A program made the position numbers and the translations under genes. Shown one piece after another: positions 1,960-60,819 of a stretch of DNA of 64,000 bases. Source of the DNA: the human T2T-CHM13v2.0 reference genome, Homo sapiens; assembly GCF_009914755.1 (NCBI RefSeq), contig NC_060933.1, one strand, 5' to 3'. The notes beneath the pieces are model-generated. The model ran no database searches. It was not told where the DNA came from and saw nothing but the letters and a program-made list of their open reading frames with translations. Numbering within the stretch: the first letter of the stretch is position 1; the number at the start of each line of letters is the position of its first letter.

Positions 1960-2330
<371 letters not shown>

Positions 2331-3397
2331 CTAACAGCAGAGTTCTCAGAAGAAACATTATAGTCCAGGAAACAATGGAATGATAAAGAGCCAAAAGAAG
2401 TAAAGTACCAGACAAGAATACTAGACCCAGTAAAGCTATCCTTCAGAAATCAAGGAGAAATCAATCTTTTTTAGTGAAACAAAAACTGAGGGAATTCATC
2501 ACCACTAAACTAGCCGTATAAGAAATGCTTAAGCGATTCCTACATCTAGAAATGAAAGAATAATATCTACCCTCATGAAAAAACACAAAAGTATAAAACT
2601 CAGTGGTAGAGCAGATGTACAAATACAAAAGAGAAAGGAATCAAATATTATTACTACTAAAGATCACCAAACTGCAAAGATAAACAGTAAGAGAGGAAAA
2701 AAGAAACAAAGGATATATAAGACAATAAGAAAACACTTAACAAAAAGACAGGAGTAAATCCTCACATATCAATAACAACCTTGATTGTAAACCATTTAAA
2801 TTCAGAATTAGAAGATATAGACTGTCTAAATGTATAAAAAAAAGACCAAACTGTATTCTGCCTCCACAAACTCACTTTACCTGTAAAAACACATATAGAC
2901 TAAAAGTGAGGGGATGGAAAAAGATATTCTATACAAATGAAAACCACAAGTAAACAGGAATATCTATACTTACATCAGATAAAATAGACCTTAAGTCAAA
3001 AAAAGACAAAAAGAGACAAAGAAGGTTATTATGTAATGATAAATGTATCAATTCATCAAGAGGATATAACAATTGTAAATATGCATGTACCCAACACCAG
3101 AACATCCAGATATATAAAACAAATATTACTAAAGCTAAAGGGAAAGATAGACCCCAGTACAATAGTAGTTGAGAACTTCAACATCCCACTTTCAGGATTG
3201 GACCAGTAATCTAGATAGAAAATTAACAAACATTGGACTGAACCCGCAATATAGAATAGATGAACCTAACGAATATTTTATCCAACAGCTGCAGAACACA
3301 CATTCTTCTCACCAGGACATGGAACATTCTCAAGGCAAAACCATATGTTAGGCAACAAAATAAATCTCAACAAATTTTTAAAAATCAAAGCAATATC

Positions 3398-7627
<4,230 letters not shown>

Positions 7628-8364
7628 GGAAAATTTTTTTAAAGTGCATACATTTTCAAAAATATGCATAGAAAAATATTTGAAAGGATGTATACCAGAC
7701 TTTTTTAAATGGTCATTTCTTGATGGCATGATTATATGACTTTTTTTCTTTCTGTTTACCTATTTTTTTAAACTTTACATTATAAACTCATCTTAATCTC
7801 TGCCAACAAGAAAAAAAGTGCCGTTAATAATATCTGTAATATGAATGACATAACTTCTAGAATTATTAAGCTTGAGAAGTAGTGTGCAGAAAAGAGTTAA
7901 CATAGCAGGTCTGACTACTATCCTTCAAAAGACCTGCTTAAAAGATGCCTCTTAGCTGGCATTTGGGAACTTAGATTTCAGAACAGTTCCTGCCACTCTA
8001 ACTGGTAAGAGTGGCTCACCGTACCTAAATAATACGGTTTATGCTGAATATTTGCTTTCCTTCTGGGAGTTTGGAATTTCAGTGCATACTAGGCAGAAAA
8101 TGTCTATGTAACCACACCCCCATAAAAACCTAGGTTTTGAGTCACTAATGATCTCCAGTAACACAAAATTTCACATATGTTACAATTTGTTGCTGCAAAA
8201 AAAATAAGTACACCCTGTGTGACTCCACTGGGAGAGGACTCTTAGAAGTCTGTACCTGTTTTCTTGGGATTTCACCCCATCATGCACTCTTCCCTTTGCT
8301 GATTTTTCTTTGTGTGCATTCACTGTAATAAATACTGCTATGAGGAGTATGACCATTAAAAAAA
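7628..8364 (+). other. L1 3'-transduced segment
   Basis: Non-L1PA DNA between the L1PA 3' end and the downstream TSD copy AAAAATCAAAGCAATATC (3380-3397 = 8360-8377); AATAAA at 8327-8332 and A-run at 8358-8364. Confidence 0.88.
7883..8357 (+). mobile_element. ERV LTR (MER68/MER21-like), truncated at its poly(A) site, inside the transduction
   Basis: Starts TGTGCAGAAAAGAGTTAACATAGCAGG; contains TGTGACTCCACTGGGAGAGGACTCTT; ends ~25 nt after AATAAA with no U5 or terminal CA. Confidence 0.8.
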
Positions 8365-11300
8365 TCAAAGCAATATCAAGTATCTTTTCAGACCAAAATG
8401 GAATAAAACTAGAAGTCAATAACAAGAGTAACTTTGGAAACTGTACGTAAAAATTAAGTAACATGCTCTTGAACAACCGCTGGGTCGATTAAATAAATTA
8501 AGAAAGAAAATGGTTTCTTGAATCAACTAAAAGTAAAATTATAGCATAGCAAAATCTATGGGATACAGCAAAAGCAGTACTAACAGAGAATTTTATGGAA
8601 ATAAATACCTACATCAAAAACTAGACAGATTTAAGATAAACAACCTAAAAATACATCTCAAGGAACTAGAAAAGCAAGAACAAACCAAACCCAAAATTAG
8701 TAGAAGAAAAAAAATAATAAAGATTAGAGCAAAACTAAAGAAAATACAGACTGAAAAAAATATGCATAAGATGAATAAAATGAAAAGTTATTTTTTGAAA
8801 GATAAATAAAATCAATAAACCATTAACTAGATTAAGAAAAAAAGAAAGAAAATCTAAATAAAATCAGAAACAAAAAAGGAGACATCACAACTGATTTCAC
8901 AGAGATGTAAAGGATCATTAGAGGCAATATGCCAACAAATTGAAAAGCCTAGAGGAAATGGATAAATTCCTGAACACATATAACCCACCAACACTGAACC
9001 CAGAAGAAATAGAAAAGGGAAACAGAGCAATCATGAGTAACAAAATTGAATCAGCAATAAAAAGTCTCCCAAAAAAGAAAAGCCCAGGACCGGATGGCTT
9101 CACTGCTAAATACTACCAAATATTTAAAGAAAAACTAACATTTACATCCATGTAGTATGGGAAATTAAAAAGAAAAACTAACACCAATTCTTCTCAAACT
9201 GTTCTAATAAAGTTGAGAGGGGTAATTTTTCCTAACTTATCCTATGAGGCCAGCATAATCCTGATACCAAAACCAGACAAGGACACAGCAACAACAAAAA
9301 AAGAAAACTCTAGTGAACATAGATGAAAAAATTCAAACAAAATACTAGCAAACTAAATCTAACAGGACATTTAAAAGATTATACACATGATCAAGTGGGA
9401 TTTATCCCAGGGATGCAATGATGGTTCAACATACACAAATCAATAAATGTGATACATCACATCAAGAGAATGAAGGACAAAAAACATATGATCATCTCAA
9501 TAGATGCAGAAAAGGCATTGGATAAAATTACACATTTCCTCATGATGAAAACTCTCAAAAACTTAGGTAGAAAAAACATACCTCAACAAAATAAAGACCA
9601 TATAAAACAGCTAACATCATATTGAATGAGGAAAATAAAGTTTTCCTCTAAGAACTGGAACAAGACAAGAATGTCCACTTCTACCACTCGCATTCAACAT
9701 AGTACTGGATGTCCTAGCCAGAGAAATTAAGCAAGAGAAAGAAAGGGCATTCACATTGGAAAAGAGTAGGTCAAACTGTACCTCTTTGTAGATGACATAA
9801 TCTTATATATAGAAAAACCTAAAGACCTCACCAAAACACTCTTAGAACTGAAAGAGGAATTCAGTAAAATTTCAAAATACAAAAATCAGTAGCATTTTTA
9901 TATACCAATAACTAGCTGAAAATGGAACAAAGAAAGCAATAACTACAACAAAATAAAAATCTCATGTTCATTAATAGGAAGAACTGATATTATGAAATGA
10001 CCGTACTGCCCAAAGTAATCTACAGATTTAATGCGATCTCTTTCAAAATACCAATGACATTCTTCACAGAAATAGGAAAAACAATCCTGAAATTCATATT
10101 GAACCACAAAAGACTCCAAATAGCCAATCCTGAGCATAAAGAAAAAGTCGGAAGTATTATACCAGAAATACTAGATTTCAAAATATTCTACAAAGCTAAA
10201 ATAACCAAAACACATGGTACTGGCATGAAAACAGACACATAGACTGATGGAACAGAATAGAAAAGCCAGAAAGAAATTTATACATTTATAGCCAACTGAT
10301 TGATAAAGGCACCGTGAACACACACTGGGGAATGGCAGGCTTTTCAATAAATGGTGCTGAGAAAACTGGATATCCACATGCAAAAGAGTGAGACTATACC
10401 CTTATTTATCGCCATAACAGAAATTAACTAAAAATGGATTTAAGACTTAAATGTAAGGCTTAAAACAATAAAACTACTGGAAGAAAATATGAGAGAAATG
10501 CTTCATGACATTGGGCAAAGATTTTATAGGTACAACTTCAAAAACACAGGCAAAAAAGCAAAAATAGACAAATTGGATTATTTCAGACTAAAAAACCTTA
10601 AGCACAACAAAGGAAACAATTAACACACTGAGAGACAACCTGTAGAATGGGAGAAAATATTTGTAAGCTATTAACCTGATGAGGGATTAATATCCAGAAT
10701 ATTAAAGGAACTCAAACAATTCAATAGCAAGAAAAATAATCTGGTTTAAAATGGGCAAAGAATCTGAATAAATATTTCTCAGGTGAAAATATCTCTCAAA
10801 TGGCCAAAAAGTATATTAAAAATGCTCAACATCACTAATCAGGGAAATGTGAATCAAAACCACAACGAGATACCATCTCAACCCAGTTAGAAAGGCTATT
10901 ATTTAAAAAGACAAAAAAATAACAAATTCTGGCAAGGATGCAGAGAAAGGAGAACTCTTACACATTGTTGGTGTCAATACAAATTAGTACAGCTATTTTG
11001 GTCAATAGTATGGAGGTTCCTGAAAAAAACTAAAGATAGAACTATCATATGATCCAGCAATCCCACTACTAGGTACTTAGCCAAAGAAAAGGAAATTGAC
11101 ATATCAAAGAGCTATCTGTCCCCCTTGATATTTATTGAAGCACTAGTCACAGTAGCCAAGCTATGTAATCAACCTAGGTGTCCAAAAACAGATGAATGGT
11201 TAAGTAAAACGTGGTCTGTACACACAGTGGAATACTATTCAGCCATTAAAAAAGAATAAAATCCTGTCATTTGAGGCAACATGAATGAGTCTGTAGGGCA

Positions 11301-50509: not shown

Positions 50510-50905
50510 CCTTTTATTTATTATTATTGCAGTAAAGTATTCATAACATAAAATTTATCTTATTTATTTTTAAATATATTCATATTGTTGTACAACCACC
50601 ACCGTCCATCTATCCACAGAACTCTTTATCACCCCAAATGAAATTCTGCACCCATTAAACAATAATTCCCCATTTCCGCCTCCCTCTAATCCCCTGGAAA
50701 CCACCATCATTCTACATTCTGTCTCTATCAATTTGATGACTTTGGGTATCTCATGTCAGTGGAATCATACAATATTTGTCCTTTAGTGTCTGGCTTAGTT
50801 CACTTAACTTTATGTCTTCCAGGTTCATCCATGTTGTAGCATATGCCAGAATTTCCTTCCTTTTAAAGGCTGAATAATATTTCATTGTGTTTATATACCA
50901 CATTG
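50510..50905 (-). mobile_element. L1MB-like 3' fragment
   Basis: CATAACATAAAATTTA...CCCCTGGAAACCACC...GGAATCATACAATATTTGTCC...TTTAAAGGCTGAATAATATT. Confidence 0.85.
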
Positions 50906-50988: not shown

Positions 50989-51185
50989 TTTGGAGCCTGT
51001 CAGAGGGTGGAGGGTGGGAGGAGGGAAAGCATCAGGTAGAATAGCTAATGGTTGCTGGGCTTAATACCTAGGTGATGGGATGATCTGTGCAGACAACCAC
51101 CATGGCCCACGTTTACCTGTGTAACAAACCTGCACATCCTGCACATGTACCCCTGAACTTAAAATAAAAATTGAAAAAAAAAAAA
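50989..51185 (+). mobile_element. Short 5'-truncated L1PA (8-12-like) 3' end
   Basis: L1PA 3'UTR plus A-tail; TSD AAGACAACTC (50979-50988 / 51184-51193). Confidence 0.9.
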
Positions 51186-51224
51186 GACAACTCCAGAGGT
51201 TGTAATAGATAAAATATCAATGGC

Positions 51225-51754
51225 TGTCAGTGAGTTCCCCCAGAAGCAGAGGCTGTTAAGGACCTGAGTGCTGGTAATTCATTTGGGAGGTGAGCTCAGA
51301 AGGCAAGAATGAAGGAATAAGGAGACAAAGACAGGGAAGAAGGGAGACATGGTATAAAGTGTGCTACAGAGGTCACTGCTGTGGGTTCAACTCTGCAGAG
51401 ATTCCTGAGGAGTACATAGAATGCCTTCAAGAATTGTGTACCTGAATGGTAGAGATTGGAGCATTTACCCACTCACTCCTATCCCCACTGGTTGAGTGCT
51501 GCCCCTGGAGATGATAATGTTCTTGCTTGTCCGTGATGCATTTGCTTGTGAGCAGGCCAAGCCTATTTCTGCAAGGTAGAGAAGACCATGAGGCAAAAAG
51601 TAGGGGATGCACATGGCATACTAGAAGTGGGACACTGTCAACACCAAATCTGTCCAAGTTATTACAGAATTCTTCACCTCAGCTACAGCTGAAATCAGAC
51701 GCAAGCTGAGGGGATGTAAGAATGTGACATATGGTACTGGAAGTGTCTGCTACA
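51225..51754 (-). mobile_element. LTR33-like ERVL LTR
   Basis: GTTCCCCCAGAAGCAGA...ATTTGGGAGGTGA...GGAAGTGTCTGCTACA. Confidence 0.7.
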
Positions 51755-52175
51755 ATTAACAAGATACAAGTTTAGTGCTCACTAATGTCACAGCCAATTG
51801 CATGTGTCCCCGGTGGCCCACCTCTAAATAGCAGGACCCAAGTATCTGTCATCCTGTGTACTGTCATATTCAACACATGATTGCCAAGGACACAGTGGTT
51901 GTTTTTTTTTTTTTTTTAATTCAACCGGGACAGGAACATAGGGAATTGCCCAGGGAAGTTTTTATAGTCTAGGTCTAGAACAGGCCTGAATCATTTTTAT
52001 CCACAACCCACTGGCCAGAACTCAGTCACATGACTATACCTCACGGCAAGAGAGACTGGGAGATGTAGTCCATTCTGTGTGCCAGAGGGTGGAACAAATA
52101 AATTTTGTTAAACACAAAGCAGTTTCTACCCTAGGTGTTAAGACTGGTTGTTTGTTTGTTTTTGTCTTTGATTTT

Positions 52176-52657
52176 TTCACTGAAAGAAAACAGTACATGA
52201 TGAACTGTTCAGAAAGGAAGGTTGTTTTAACATTTCATAACCGGATATCTGTTTGGCCCTATATGTGCACATGGGGAAAGAAACTTCTACAGTCTTCTTC
52301 TATTTACCTACAAACACCTCTTGGTGTTAAAATCTTTGATTCATTGAAAGAAAGAAGTGCATGAGAAACTGCTCAGAAAATAAGTTGGTTTTTTTTTGTT
52401 TTTTTTTTTTACTTTTCAGTGCTAGATATCTATATGGCCCTACAGCTGCATATTGGTATAAAAAAACTTCTGCCACCTTCTTTTGAATTTCTGCCTAGAA
52501 ACTCCTCTTACTGTTAACATTTTCCATTCACTGAAAGAAAACAGTACATGATGGACTCTTCAGAAAGGAAGCTTGTTTTTGCTTTTCAGGGCAGAATATC
52601 TTTATTGTTCTATTGGCACCTATGGGTGTAAAAATCTTCTGCTAGTTTCTTCTAAAT
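52176..52657 (+). repeat. Diverged tandem array, ~2.8 monomers of ~165-170 bp, alpha-satellite-like
   Basis: Monomers start TTCA(C/T)TGAAAGAAA at 52176, 52340 and 52527; shared internal motifs; anchors collinear with the remembered alphoid consensus. Confidence 0.7.
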
Positions 52658-52762
52658 AGGACTGTCCTTTTTATAAAGAATAAGATTGAAGGCAATATAT
52701 ATTAAACGTGTTAAGCCTAATCACACCCTTTGTCCTAGAAACTGCACTTGTAGAAATCCTTC

Positions 52763-53192
52763 TGTGGTGGATATTCTCCATTTGGTCCTCCAGATCCATC
52801 CTCCACCCTTCTTTCTCCCTGAATTGGGGCTCCCTAGTCTTCTAACTTCTGGTTAAGTTGGGCCAATGGAAGGCTCCAGCAGAATCAGTAGACAGGATAA
52901 GAGAGAAGTGGGAGTATATAGTTCCCTGGCTCCTCCTAGTGAGGCCACGTGTTAGAAATGGCTGAATTCCCTTAGCACAGGCCATGATTCCTATTGGGAA
53001 GCGACCTCCTGCAGCTGTAGCAACTGCCATGGCTTCAGCTCCACTTGTCTCTCTCATTTCCTGTCACTGCTTCCTCACTTTGCCCCTTTGGTTTACTGGT
53101 CTGCCTCAGTGATGCTCACACTTTCCTAAATAGTCCTCAGTTACCCCATTTAAGTGTGCTTTCAGTTTCTTGTATGAACTCTAACTAATATA
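52763..53192 (+). mobile_element. LTR33A-like LTR nested in an old L1 fragment
   Basis: TGTGGTGGATATTCTCCATTTGGTCCTCCAGATCCATCCTCCACCC...CTAACTAATA. Confidence 0.7.
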
Positions 53193-54109
53193 CTATCCTA
53201 GAGAAATACTCAGAATTTAGAAAAACATACAAAGATGTTCAGTATTGCAATATTTAGAATAGAAAAAGCTCTGAAACTAAGTGCCTAGTATATTACCATG
53301 AATCCATGATAGAAAAAAATACACAAATATGTAAATGTTCACTGCCTTTTCTGTCTCCTACCACCAATAACCCCACCTCTATCCCAGGAAAATTCTGGTG
53401 AAGTCTCTCCCTTGACTTTCCTGTCCTCGAATATGCCCCCTCAGGATGTGTTACTGAGTTCAAAAAGGGGGAGAGGGGGAGGGGTTTGTATTTAAAGAAG
53501 TAAAATAAATAGGTTGATTTACATAGAAGGCAGGCAAGTGTGCCTGGAAAAAGAGAAAACATTATTCCATGAGAGGAATATGAGAACCAAAAAAAAAAAA
53601 AAAAAACAAAGGAAAAGAAGATATGAGGAGATGAATGGGTAAACAAGGGTTTTTCCTGCATGTTTCTTTTTGTAAACTCACCCCGTCAAGGAAACTTACA
53701 ATAAGCACTTTCATTACTTACAACACACTCACTGAAGCCTCTGAGATGGGATTCCTGTGTCTCTGACATTTATTGATTCCTCACTTTGTACTACTGTGTA
53801 AAGTAAGTTACCTGCATTATTTTATTCAATGCTCTTTAAGGCCTTTCCATATTCAAGATGAGGAAACTGAAACACAGGAAGTTTGGCTAGATTTTCATGC
53901 CCCACTACTCAGATGATACATTCATATGAAAATATATTACACAGAAATTGTGTTTTGAAAGTTTAAAAAATCTGAATATGATAGAGTGTTGTCTTTTTAA
54001 ATTATGTTTTATTTTCTGCTTGTAAAACCAAAATATCTAAAAATCTGAAAAACTAAGTAGAGGCAAGAAAAAAGAAAAAGAGAGAGAATAAGGAATGAAA
54101 GCAAATACA

Positions 54110-59120: not shown

Positions 59121-60819
59121 GAGCAGCTAAGTCAATTCTAGGTGTGTATTATTTTTTTACAATGCAGTGCAGAGCATTGCTCTGTACGTGTTTTCTCTTC
59201 TCCTTGGCTGCAATCTAGCCTGGGTCTCAGCTGAAAATAAAGCCTGTGGCTTTATTCTCCATTCTCAGTCTCACAGAAACATCTGATCCTGTCGGCAGCA
59301 GCTTTCGAAGGTCCTTCAAGATGGCTTGCTGTCACACCACGTGAGGTGGTCACCCCATGCAGCAAAACCACACAGCCATCGCTTCCAAACCCTGCCAAGC
59401 GAAAGCTTGCAACATTGAAATGGCTGCACCTCAAACTGTCATGTGATTTCTGTATCATAGGAATTTTAGAAACAGATGGTGAGCACAGACGACAGTGACG
59501 GTTGCACTACGCGTATGGGGCAAAGGGGAATGAGCGAGCAAGGGGGCGAGAATCAAGCAAATTCTGGAGGAGCACTGGAAGAAAAGAGGACTGCTGAGAG
59601 CTTGCCTTCTGCCAGAAAATACAACCACAGGTTGCAAGAAGTTGGGGGAAACAAAATGCCTGACAGGCAGTTGGGGGAGCAGGGTGGGGAAGAAGCAAAA
59701 AGAGGTATTTTGCTTCTAAAACAAGGAGGACTATATGATTAAACATTTTTTTTAAGTTACACCAGAAAAATAGGCAGCCAAATTGATCGATTCACCTAAG
59801 CTTGACCTTTTGGCAAATGATTTTGTTGCTTGAGGAAATATGCAGTGTCAGAAGAGTAGAAGATTGAGAGCATGCCTGGGAACCGGTTTTAGAAAAATGA
59901 CCCGATACCCCACATCCACGGCCACCAGTGCCCTGCTCCCCAGACACCGCCTTCCATTTCGAGGGGGGTGGCGATTTCTGTGGACGTCTCAGATGGCTGC
60001 TCTCCTAATTCTATCATGAAATGTATTTCCCCTGGAGCTGGCATTTATCGCTGAATTCTGGCACCGCTCCTGAAATGTTGCATCTGCACCGCTAAACTGA
60101 GGTTACTTGTAGTTCATTAATATGCAAAAGGGGCCATGAAATCATTCCTGTTCCTGACAGGAGTTCGTACATGCCTTTCTGGAATGCTTCATTTCTGAAG
60201 TGGTCTGGCACTGAGACTTCCCTTGTCTTCTTTTAATCAGCTCCATCTTGTCACTGCATAAAGAGTTAAAAAAAAAAAAAAGAAAAAAATTGCTTTCTGA
60301 ATTCTCCAGGAAGATGTGGTGCCTCTTTCTTTCTCTTTTCTTTCGTTTCTCCTTTTTTTTTTGTCATCCCCCACCCCCTTCCATGAACACATCAAAGTAA
60401 GAAGTGACATGCAGTGCCCTGGAGCTCTTAGCAACATGCTTTTAGGTTTGGAAAATTTCATTTGCTACCTTATGATGATTACATGAGGAAAGATGAAATG
60501 CTCGCTTTGAGCTTTATTTGAGAAAGAGATGTAATAAATGTTGTGGCTTCCCACTGAATGGGACAAATCCATTTTAGTCATGTGAGGATATTAAAAATTA
60601 CATATGTGTGTGCACAGACATAGCCCGTGTGACTTAGTTGGCATTTGTGGTCCCAGATACTGAAAAAGGAGACCTTGGGTGGCTTCTTTCAGAAAATGCT
60701 GAATAAAGTTTTTCGTTTTATCTGGCTCTGAAAGCATTTGATTCCAAATGAAAATGAGTTCCCGCCCTGTCTGAGCTACAGCAGTCCCCTTTAAACCAGT
60801 CCCCCACCCCCACCAACAT

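What the first reader, a model, noticed from the sequence alone, without database searches (positions are those of the whole stretch)
52138..52715. Relic ~170-bp tandem array collinear with alpha satellite, outside any centromeric context, ending in a piggyBac-like terminus
Seen: three diverged monomers, 52176-52339 (164 bp), 52340-52526 (187 bp including a ~18-nt poly-T expansion) and 52527-~52657 (partial). They lie in ordinary chromosome-arm-type DNA among old MLT1/LTR33/L1ME repeats. Against the 171-bp alphoid consensus as I recall it, anchors occur in the same order and at nearly the same spacing. Offsets from AGAAAC (52497), here vs alpha: TCAC +31/+30, TGAT +52/+52, GAAA +66/+67, G(G/A)ATAT +97/+96, CCTATGG +122/+118, ATCTTC +137/+138. 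Base identity is low, far below normal monomeric alpha. After the array comes TTTTTATAAAGAATAAGATTGAAGGCAATATATATTAAACGTG|TTAA (TTAA at 52711), reminiscent of a piggyBac right end (...AGGG|TTAA). Another TTAA lies at 52138, and GTGTTAAG flanks both sides. Inference: this may be a very ancient proto-alpha-satellite unit dispersed as cargo of a DNA transposon (piggyBac/Looper-type), i.e. a fossil bearing on the origin of primate centromeric DNA. No CCC left TIR is visible, so the transposon part is tentative.
Basis: partly seen in the sequence, partly recalled or inferred. Interest (0 to 1): 0.85.

Follow-up and report, generated by a model that had tools for sequence, protein, structure and literature searches.

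The report
Fossil 171-bp repeat, not piggyBac
This is a decayed three-unit piece of a very old 171-bp tandem repeat that is scattered over dozens of human chromosome-arm sites; it is not transposon cargo, and its resemblance to centromeric alpha satellite is weak but above chance, so it is a lead on alpha's origin and not proof.

Summary
The array is real: three head-to-tail units at 52178-52339, 52342-52527 and 52529-52658 (+), 72-76% alike. It is not unique. The same unit occurs at 47 or more other places on many chromosomes, as arrays of 0.5-3.9 units, plus one array of at least 22 units on chr19. Copies are about 75% identical to the family consensus, so the family is far older than primates.

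The piggyBac reading fails:
- No other copy shares sequence beyond 52657.
- There are no terminal inverted repeats.
- Both flanking TTAAs sit in GTGTTAA, a motif that recurs once per unit and in phase.

L1 sequence next to several copies comes from later L1 insertions into the arrays.

Similarity to alpha satellite is weak but above controls. A 50-column central core has 34 of 50 consensus matches. HMMER E-values are about 1e-4 to 6e-3, and 0-14 of 300-1000 shuffles reach the observed scores. The reverse-complement orientation scores as well or better, because the unit's centre is quasi-palindromic.

Verdict: an ancient dispersed satellite-like fossil. Kinship with alpha is possible (about 30%) but unproven. 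I could not check it against Dfam.

The parts
52178..52339 (+). unit 1 of the array (model positions 1-169 of 171)
   Evidence: Infernal R1 103.4 bits, E 3.7e-31; nhmmer E 3.2e-35.
52342..52527 (+). unit 2 (model positions 1-170), lengthened by a T-run at 52389-52410
   Evidence: R1 86.3 bits; TRF finds a T-run of period 1 at 52389-52410.
52529..52658 (+). unit 3, partial (model positions 1-133); the last point at which other genomic copies still align is 52657
   Evidence: R1 93 bits; no BLAST HSP from any other locus passes 52657.
52143..52177 (+). T-rich (TTTG)n-like stretch between the left GTGTTAAG and unit 1; possibly the degenerate end of an upstream unit
   Evidence: Read directly. Not significantly unit-like: 12.4 bits against a null of 13.9 +/- 2.0. 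The reading is by eye only.
52659..52707 (+).
   Evidence: Not shared with any other copy; not significantly unit-like; no inverted repeat with the left end.
52135..52142 (+). left GTGTTAAG (contains the TTAA at 52138)
   Evidence: GTGTTAA also occurs at 52324 inside unit 1, and CTGTTAAC at 52511 inside unit 2. Spacings are 189, 187 and 197, i.e. the array period.
52708..52715 (+). right GTGTTAAG (contains the TTAA at 52711)
   Evidence: There are 4 copies of this 8-mer on the + strand of the 64-kb window, and two of them flank the array.

Best explanation
The stretch 52178-52658 is a 2.8-unit relic of an ancient satellite-like repeat with a unit of about 171 bp. The family survives in the human genome as short, decayed arrays at dozens of chromosome-arm sites and as one array of about 7 kb on chr19.

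The window's copy arrived, or was left behind, as a block. Its three units are no closer to each other than to copies on other chromosomes, so there has been no homogenisation since. It has since decayed neutrally and gained a T-run. I infer that it has no function now.

It is not cargo of a piggyBac or other DNA transposon, and it is not part of an L1.

How the short arrays were spread is not shown. My preferred guess is L1-mediated retroposition of array transcripts; reintegration of excised circles is the alternative. In the retroposition reading, the A/T-rich 52659-52707 would be a decayed tail and GTGTTAAG a target-site duplication.

The resemblance to alpha satellite is a weak similarity centred on the quasi-palindromic middle of the unit.
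For: DISPERSED FAMILY
- A BLAST search of the window's own genome gave 24 other places. Of these, 3 are T-run-only hits and several rows share a locus.
- A chr19 array used as query gave 53 places.
- By my count from the two tables, that makes 47 distinct other loci. The family HMM confirmed 35 of them.
- Array sizes are 0.5-3.9 units in 34 loci (window included), with start and end phases scattered.
- chr5:159.64 Mb holds 2.8 copies of a 171-bp period.
- chr19:31.277-31.284 Mb holds at least 22 units.

AGE
- Mean identity to the majority consensus is 75%, K2P 0.31.
- The window's units are 72-76% identical to each other, but 79-82% identical to the chr7 copy L003.

NO CARRIER ELEMENT
- In 34 loci the only shared flanks are Alu and L1.
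- The L1 is genuine ORF2 C-terminus (E 2.9e-59 against solved human ORF2p, residues 969-1272).
- It abuts the arrays in both orientations and at different unit columns.
- In L060 an L1 of about 1.15 kb is flanked by the same roughly 20 unit columns on both sides, 16 of 20 identical, i.e. a target-site duplication.

RETROPOSITION HINTS (weak)
- 3' flanks are at least 50% A in 7 of 26 loci and at least 50% T in 1 of 26.
- There is an 11-bp direct repeat at the ends of L042 and one of at least 21 bp in L058.
Against: - No repeat library (Dfam/Repbase) was at hand. The unit could be an annotated piece of a named element that I failed to recognise.
- 11 of 34 arrays start at unit columns 25-47, several right after an L1 3' end or an A-run (L045, L048, L049, L016). 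This could instead mean a fixed junction such as L1 3' transduction.
- The A/T skew of the flanks is not significant (Wilcoxon p = 0.09).
- Convincing target-site duplications were seen in only 2 of 34 loci.
- The age estimate lumps subfamilies into one consensus and so overestimates divergence.
- No orthologous locus in another species was examined.
Confidence: 0.8

Rival explanations
1. The family is a distant relative, or the ancestor, of primate alpha satellite. Either alpha arose from one such relic array in the haplorhine ancestor, or both descend from an older 171-bp centromeric satellite.
For: - Same period, 171 bp.
- Profile-profile circular alignment gives 27.1 bits forward: 50 columns, 34 identical. 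Controls: column-permuted 13.5 +/- 2.0, max 19.6 (n=200); natural AT-matched decoys 14.1 +/- 2.1, max 25.0, with 0 of 1500 reaching the observed score; Gumbel p about 2e-4.
- With both profiles repeated, family(+) against reverse-complement alpha gives 38.9 bits over 321 family columns in one register, 179 of 328 identical. Decoys reach at most 25.0 (n=400).
- The reversed-only control scores 12.3 and the complement-only control 18.0.
- An HMM of monomeric X-pericentromere alpha against the family consensus gives 10.9 and 10.5 bits (E about 1e-4). None of 1000 shuffles reaches this; their maximum is 3.5.
- Infernal family model with filters off: the best alpha hit is 23.8 bits over model positions 5-152. 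The best in 64 kb of ordinary window DNA is 12.8 bits, on a low-complexity run.
- The top 14 Infernal hits are all in the monomeric array L031, not in the HOR arrays.
Against: - The alpha HMM against real family copies gives at best 6.5 bits, E 0.022, and 5 of 100 shuffles reach that. With the L031 HMM the best is 7.5 bits, E 0.017.
- Both orientations score, because family columns 36-114 are quasi-palindromic (21.6 bits against 13.2 +/- 2.0). The two signals are therefore not independent.
- The long reverse-strand alignment drops to 18.7 bits with gap penalties of 7/1.5.
- Family HMMs against alpha consensus give only 3.0-6.3 bits, and 1-14 of 300-1000 shuffles reach that.
- Infernal E-values here are optimistic: 17 non-array hits at E <= 0.5 in the window.
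- The CENP-B box core is absent.
- The finding was picked because it looked like alpha, which is a selection effect.
Confidence: 0.3
2. The array is the internal repeat of a non-autonomous piggyBac-type (MER75/MER85/Looper-like) or other cut-and-paste transposon bounded by the TTAAs at 52138 and 52711.
For: - TTAA is present on both sides within an identical 8-mer, GTGTTAAG.
- The 8-mer occurs only 4 times on the + strand of the 64-kb window.
Against: - No terminal inverted repeat: the best match is 10 of 15, reached by 190 of 500 shuffles. The repeat finder lists no inverted pair joining the two ends.
- Family matches at none of the 24 other places extend past 52657, nor left of 52151.
- There is no shared non-Alu, non-L1 flank in 34 loci.
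- Array ends fall at scattered unit phases.
- GTGTTAA is an in-phase motif of the unit itself.
- TTAA occurs once per 164 bp here.
Confidence: 0.03
3. The units are the tandem-repeat part of a larger retroelement, for example the 3' UTR of an old L1 subfamily or sequence carried along by L1 3' transduction. The window holds a 5'-truncated copy.
For: - In 5 loci an L1 ORF2 end and 3' end lie directly upstream of the array in the same orientation (L016, L019, L045, L048, L064).
- Four arrays start at unit columns 34-36 after that end or after an A-run.
- The window copy is followed by an A/T-rich stretch.
Against: - In 4 other loci the L1 is on the other side and inverted (L043, L051, L060, L061).
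- Junction columns differ between loci: about 34, 95-101, and 59-82.
- In L060 the L1 is flanked by a duplicated piece of the unit, so it was inserted into the array.
- An Alu splits L016 in the same way.
- The 7-kb chr19 array has no ORF2 next to it.
- The 3' ends of the copies are not fixed. L1-borne sequence should have fixed 3' ends.
Confidence: 0.07

Closest known systems
Primate alpha satellite (ALR/Alpha), compared here with real CHM13 arrays from chr1, 7, 9, 17 and X (L026-L032)
   Same: - Tandem, AT-rich, 171-bp period.
- A central segment of about 50 columns is 68% identical between the consensuses (TGGATAT..CCTAT.GG..GGAAA.GAAA..TTC).
- Dispersed euchromatic copies of 1-4 units, often about 1.2 units, resemble what is reported for euchromatic alpha repeats (PMC7719264, passages read).
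   Different: - Outside the core there is no demonstrable collinearity in that orientation.
- No CENP-B box.
- Not centromeric.
- About 25% diverged from its own consensus, hence far older than alpha. Alpha is not found in lemurs (PMC2729386 passages; lemur preprint 10.64898/2026.05.16.725662 abstract and passages).
- An alpha HMM does not detect the genomic copies at a usable threshold.
piggyBac-type MITEs of the human genome (MER75, MER85, Looper); names recalled, sequences not available here
   Same: TTAA on both sides of the stretch.
   Different: - No terminal inverted repeats.
- No shared termini among copies.
- Variable ends.
- The TTAA is part of the repeat unit.
Satellite repeats dispersed in euchromatin as short arrays, and TE-to-satellite conversions (reviews PMC10048060 and PMC6947457, seen only in a search listing)
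   Same: Short arrays of variable phase and copy number scattered through chromosome arms, with one larger array.
   Different: Here all copies are very old and none is homogenised. No carrier element and no living source array were found.

Membership tests
alpha satellite | tandem monomers of about 171 bp | tested here: met
   Period 171 x 2.8 copies at chr5. Window units are 162, 186 and (partial) 130 bp. The full-unit alignment has 172 consensus columns.
alpha satellite | significant match of the genomic copies to an alpha monomer profile | tested here: not met
   An alpha HMM built from 201 monomers, run against 6,030 nt of family arrays, gives at best 6.5 bits, E 0.022, and 5 of 100 shuffles reach that. 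The L031-only HMM against 8,861 nt gives at best 7.5 bits, E 0.017, with 0 of 60 shuffles.
alpha satellite | consensus-level homology over the whole monomer | tested here: inconclusive
   Forward core: 34 of 50 identical, 27.1 bits, 0 of 1500 decoys. Rest of the unit: rank 27 of 171. Reverse-complement full-period alignment: 38.9 bits, 0 of 400 decoys, but 18.7 bits with stricter gap penalties.
alpha satellite | CENP-B box (core TTCG....A..CGGG, motif recalled from memory) in a share of monomers | tested here: not met
   0 in the window array, 0 in 14 complete units (2,370 nt) and 0 in 10 kb of the chr19 array. The HOR alpha controls have 7-12 per 4 kb. Monomeric alpha L031 also has 0, so absence is not decisive.
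alpha satellite | haplorhine-restricted age and (peri)centromeric origin | tested here: not met
   K2P to consensus is 0.31. All loci lie in chromosome arms. Presence in other species is not testable here.
piggyBac-type transposon (MER75/MER85/Looper) | terminal inverted repeats directly inside TTAA duplications | tested here: not met
   Best match is 10 of 15 between the left end and the reverse complement of the right end; 190 of 500 shuffles reach that. No such pair appears.
piggyBac-type transposon (MER75/MER85/Looper) | the same termini in other genomic copies | tested here: not met
   Family matches at none of the 24 other places extend beyond 52657. No shared flanks in 34 loci.
piggyBac-type transposon (MER75/MER85/Looper) | sequence similarity to the named consensus sequences | not testable with these tools
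   No Dfam or Repbase library was available.
L1 3' UTR or L1-borne repeat | fixed junction with the L1 3' end, one orientation, fixed 3' terminus | tested here: not met
   Both orientations occur (5 against 4 loci). Junction columns vary. There is a duplicated unit piece around the L1 in L060. The 3' ends are scattered.
unnamed ancient dispersed 171-bp tandem family (defined here) | significant full-length match to the profile built from copies on other chromosomes | tested here: met
   The window units score E 3e-35 to 5e-30 against the iterated HMM. Caveat: the window units were themselves in the training set. Independent BLAST identity to other loci is 72-82%.

The most novel reading that the evidence does not exclude
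A Mesozoic-age 171-bp satellite, now surviving only as scattered relic arrays in chromosome arms, may be the sequence from which haplorhine alpha satellite was recruited, or may share an ancestor with it. In that case the alpha monomer's length and its central GGATAT..CCTATGG..GGAAA segment would predate primates by tens of millions of years.
Probability: 0.3. Interest if true: 0.85.

Novelty: new member of a known kind. Interest (0 to 1): 0.5.

Why it matters
The origin of alpha satellite is unsettled. The papers I read report none in lemurs and offer only a speculative snoRNA origin (PMC2729386 passages; PMC4233971 passages; 2026 lemur preprint). A named, datable, pre-primate repeat family with the same unit length and a similarity above controls would make the question testable with ordinary comparative genomics.

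If the similarity turns out to be convergence, for example on a dyad-symmetric core, the locus is an ordinary neutral fossil. Its only practical value would then be as an old repeat family that should be masked.

Tried and rejected
- TRF on 51000-54000 found no ~170-bp period. The array is too diverged for TRF.
- The covariance model could not be run on the window's own genome. I used DNA queries instead.
- The L1-3'UTR idea was followed for several searches and dropped after the duplicated unit piece around the L1 in L060.
- A by-eye extension of the array into 52040-52177 and 52658-52900 was not significant: 12.4 and 16.5 bits against a null of 13.9 +/- 2.0. An nhmmer run on the same flanks returned nothing.
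- 'Empty site' test: 19 paralogs of the left-flank repeat (51954-52130) do not continue into 52717+. The insertion boundaries could therefore not be fixed this way.
- Rfam: no match in 51900-52900 at E <= 1.
- Single-strand folding of a window unit and a chr19 unit is not better than shuffles (z -0.79 and +0.30).
- Pfam on six read-through frames of the flanking L1 piece gave nothing useful. The PDB sequence search did.
'Both arms in one locus' and 'older alpha is closer' therefore remain untested.
- Literature searches found no description of this family. This is not evidence that it is undescribed, because Dfam and Repbase were not searched and bioRxiv supplements, including the list of new T2T satellites, are closed.

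Full report
WHAT IS THERE

The sequence at 52178-52658 holds three head-to-tail units.
- The repeat finder reports direct repeats of 62-100 nt at 63-79% identity, spaced 170-187 bp apart.
- A profile iterated from a unit on chr5 hits 52178-52331, 52342-52517 and 52529-52657 with E 3e-35 to 5e-30.
- A sequence-only Infernal model hits 52178-52339, 52342-52527 and 52529-52658.
- TRF does not see the array.
- Unit 2 carries a T-run at 52389-52410.

IT IS A DISPERSED FAMILY

Searching the window's own genome with 52138-52715 gave 24 other places at 67-94% identity. Three of these match only the T-run.

A second search with five units from chr19 gave 53 places. From the two tables I count 47 distinct other loci on chromosomes 1-8, 10-12, 18-20, 22 and X. 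The family HMM confirmed 35 of them. These counts are lower bounds, because the tool scores only its best candidates.

- Arrays hold 0.5-3.9 units in 34 loci, window included.
- chr5:159.64 Mb has 2.8 copies of a 171-bp period.
- chr19:31.277-31.284 Mb has at least 22 units, with alternating unit types.
- Start and end columns of the arrays are scattered. Loose clusters follow the A-rich parts of the unit.

AGE

- The 25 aligned units average 75% identity to the majority consensus, K2P 0.31.
- At the 0.216% per My quoted in PMC2729386 (passages read), that is on the order of 100 My or more. It is an overestimate, because one consensus lumps several subfamilies.
- The window's units are 72-76% identical to each other, but 79-82% identical to the chr7 copy L003. 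The array has therefore not been homogenised since it was laid down.

NO CARRIER ELEMENT, AND NOT PIGGYBAC

- In local BLAST, no match from any other locus extends right of 52657 or left of 52151. The alleged terminus 52659-52715 is private to this locus.
- All-against-all comparison of 500-bp flanks of 34 loci found only Alu and one other shared sequence.
- That other sequence is the C-terminal end of L1 ORF2. Read through its stops, it matches solved human ORF2p residues 969-1272 at E 2.9e-59.
- It abuts the arrays upstream in direct orientation in 5 loci and downstream inverted in 4 loci. The junctions fall at different unit columns, which are A-rich or T-rich.
- In L060 the L1 is flanked on both sides by the same roughly 20 columns of the unit, 16 of 20 identical. 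It was therefore inserted into an existing array. An Alu splits L016 in the same way.
- For L045, L048, L019 and L064, secondary insertion is inferred and not shown.
- The two ends of the window element share no inverted repeat. The best match is 10 of 15, and 190 of 500 shuffles reach that.
- TTAA occurs once per 164 bp in the window.
- The flanking GTGTTAAG copies (52135 and 52708) are in phase with GTGTTAA at 52324 and CTGTTAAC at 52511, at spacings of 189, 187 and 197. GTGTTAAAA is part of the unit consensus.
- The simplest reading is that these are the same unit motif in degenerate outer units. A target-site duplication cannot be excluded, and the flanks themselves are not significantly unit-like.

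SIMILARITY TO ALPHA SATELLITE

Material. I fetched real alpha arrays from five centromeres and from the X pericentromere. From these I built an alpha profile of 201 monomers.

Alpha HMM against family copies.
- The best hit is 6.5 bits, E 0.022, on the minus strand. Five of 100 dinucleotide shuffles reach it.
- The sum of the ten best hits exceeds all 100 shuffles.

Profile against profile, forward orientation.
- Circular alignment gives 27.1 bits: family columns 65-114 on alpha columns 31-79, 34 of 50 identical.
- The reverse complement gives 24.6 bits.
- Controls:
  - Column permutation: 13.5 +/- 2.0, max 19.6 (n=200).
  - Natural AT-matched decoys: 14.1 +/- 2.1, max 25.0, with 0 of 1500 reaching 27.1; Gumbel p about 2e-4.
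  - Reversed-only: 12.3.
  - Complement-only: 18.0.
- With the core register fixed, the remaining 122 columns rank only 27th of 171 rotations.

Reverse-complement orientation.
- The family unit is quasi-palindromic over columns 36-114: 21.6 bits against 13.2 +/- 2.0. This explains why both strands score.
- With repeated profiles, the reverse-complement alignment runs through 321 family columns in one register: 38.9 bits, 179 of 328 identical. Decoys reach at most 25.0 (n=400).
- The best circular global score is +14.2. Permuted profiles give -18.1 +/- 5.9 (n=25).
- However, the score falls to 18.7 bits with gap penalties of 7/1.5.

HMMER on consensus sequences.
- E-values range from 9e-4 to 6e-3, with 0-2 of 300 shuffles reaching the observed scores.
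- With an HMM of the monomeric X array, the scores are 10.9 and 10.5 bits (E about 1e-4). None of 1000 shuffles reaches these; their maximum is 3.5.
- The family HMMs against that array's consensus reach only 3.0-4.7 bits, matched by 6-14 of 1000 shuffles.

Infernal, filters off.
- The best alpha hit is 23.8 bits over model positions 5-152.
- The best hit in 64 kb of ordinary DNA is 12.8 bits, and that hit lies on a low-complexity run.
- Infernal's E-values are optimistic here: 17 background hits at E <= 0.5.

CENP-B box. The core is absent from the family and present in the HOR controls.

Overall. There is a reproducible similarity at a nominal level of about 1e-3 to 1e-4, centred on the middle of the unit. 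The orientation is unresolved, and the finding was selected because it looked like alpha. I put kinship at about 30%.

LITERATURE

- Alpha is reported absent from lemurs (PMC2729386 passages; preprint 10.64898/2026.05.16.725662 abstract and passages). The 2009 paper also found none in tarsier reads, whereas the preprint counts Tarsiidae among the alpha-bearing haplorhines.
- Euchromatic alpha repeats date back only to the ancestors of Simiformes (PMC7719264 passages).
- A snoRNA origin of alpha has been proposed on structural grounds (PMC4233971 passages).
[quoted passage not shown] Their list is in supplements that I could not open, so the chr19 array or this family may be among them.
- Searches found no description of this family.

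VERDICT

This is an ancient, dispersed, satellite-like fossil.
- The piggyBac part of the finding is refuted.
- 'Ancient and dispersed' is confirmed.
- 'Proto-alpha' remains a testable lead and is not a result.

Noticed in passing
L034 (own genome, chr19:31,275,001-31,285,000), units at 2114-4052 and 6406-8945: The largest array of the family: at least 22 units over about 7 kb in two blocks. Two unit types alternate (compare L012e with L012f and L012c in the alignment), giving a period of about 342 bp. There is no L1 ORF2 next to it.
   Followed up: partly
window 50995-51187 (+) and 50513-50904 (-): Two unrelated L1 fragments sit left of the array. One is a 3' end ending in a poly(A) run at about 51170-51187 on the + strand. 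The other is an ORF2 C-terminus plus 3' end on the minus strand. They explain the BLAST links between this window and the L1-containing loci.
   Followed up: partly
window 51954-52130: The left flank is an old dispersed repeat with at least 39 other genomic matches at 69-86% identity (one further match lies upstream, outside this span). In the two longest of the 19 fetched paralogs the match ends at about 52127-52130, a few bases before the left GTGTTAAG. The family name was not determined.
   Followed up: partly
family unit columns 36-114 (window 52213-52291 in unit 1, approximately): The middle of the unit is quasi-palindromic, centred on GATATC and CCTATAGG (79 columns, 21.6 bits against a null of 13.2 +/- 2.0). 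Present-day copies do not fold better than shuffles.
   Followed up: yes
L060, L051, L043, L016, L019 (own-genome loci): L1 and Alu insertions into the arrays fall at the A-rich unit columns (about 34 and 95-101, element in direct orientation) and at the T-rich columns (about 59-82, element inverted). This is as expected from the L1 endonuclease target preference.
   Followed up: partly
L058 (chr12:104.64 Mb) and L042 (chr10:14.59 Mb): L058 holds a single unit flanked by a direct repeat of at least 21 bp (about 27 bp by eye). L042 holds a 3-unit array flanked by an 11-bp direct repeat, with a short A-run before the right copy. These are candidate target-site duplications of the family's own insertions.
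   Followed up: partly
L005 and L006 (chr5:178.46 Mb and chr5:176.47 Mb): The same copy with the same flanks appears twice in opposite orientation, so it lies inside a segmental duplication.
   Followed up: no
window 60225-60313 (-): This is the best non-array hit of the family model in the window (12.8 bits). It lies on an A-run/T-run low-complexity stretch and is not a copy.
   Followed up: yes
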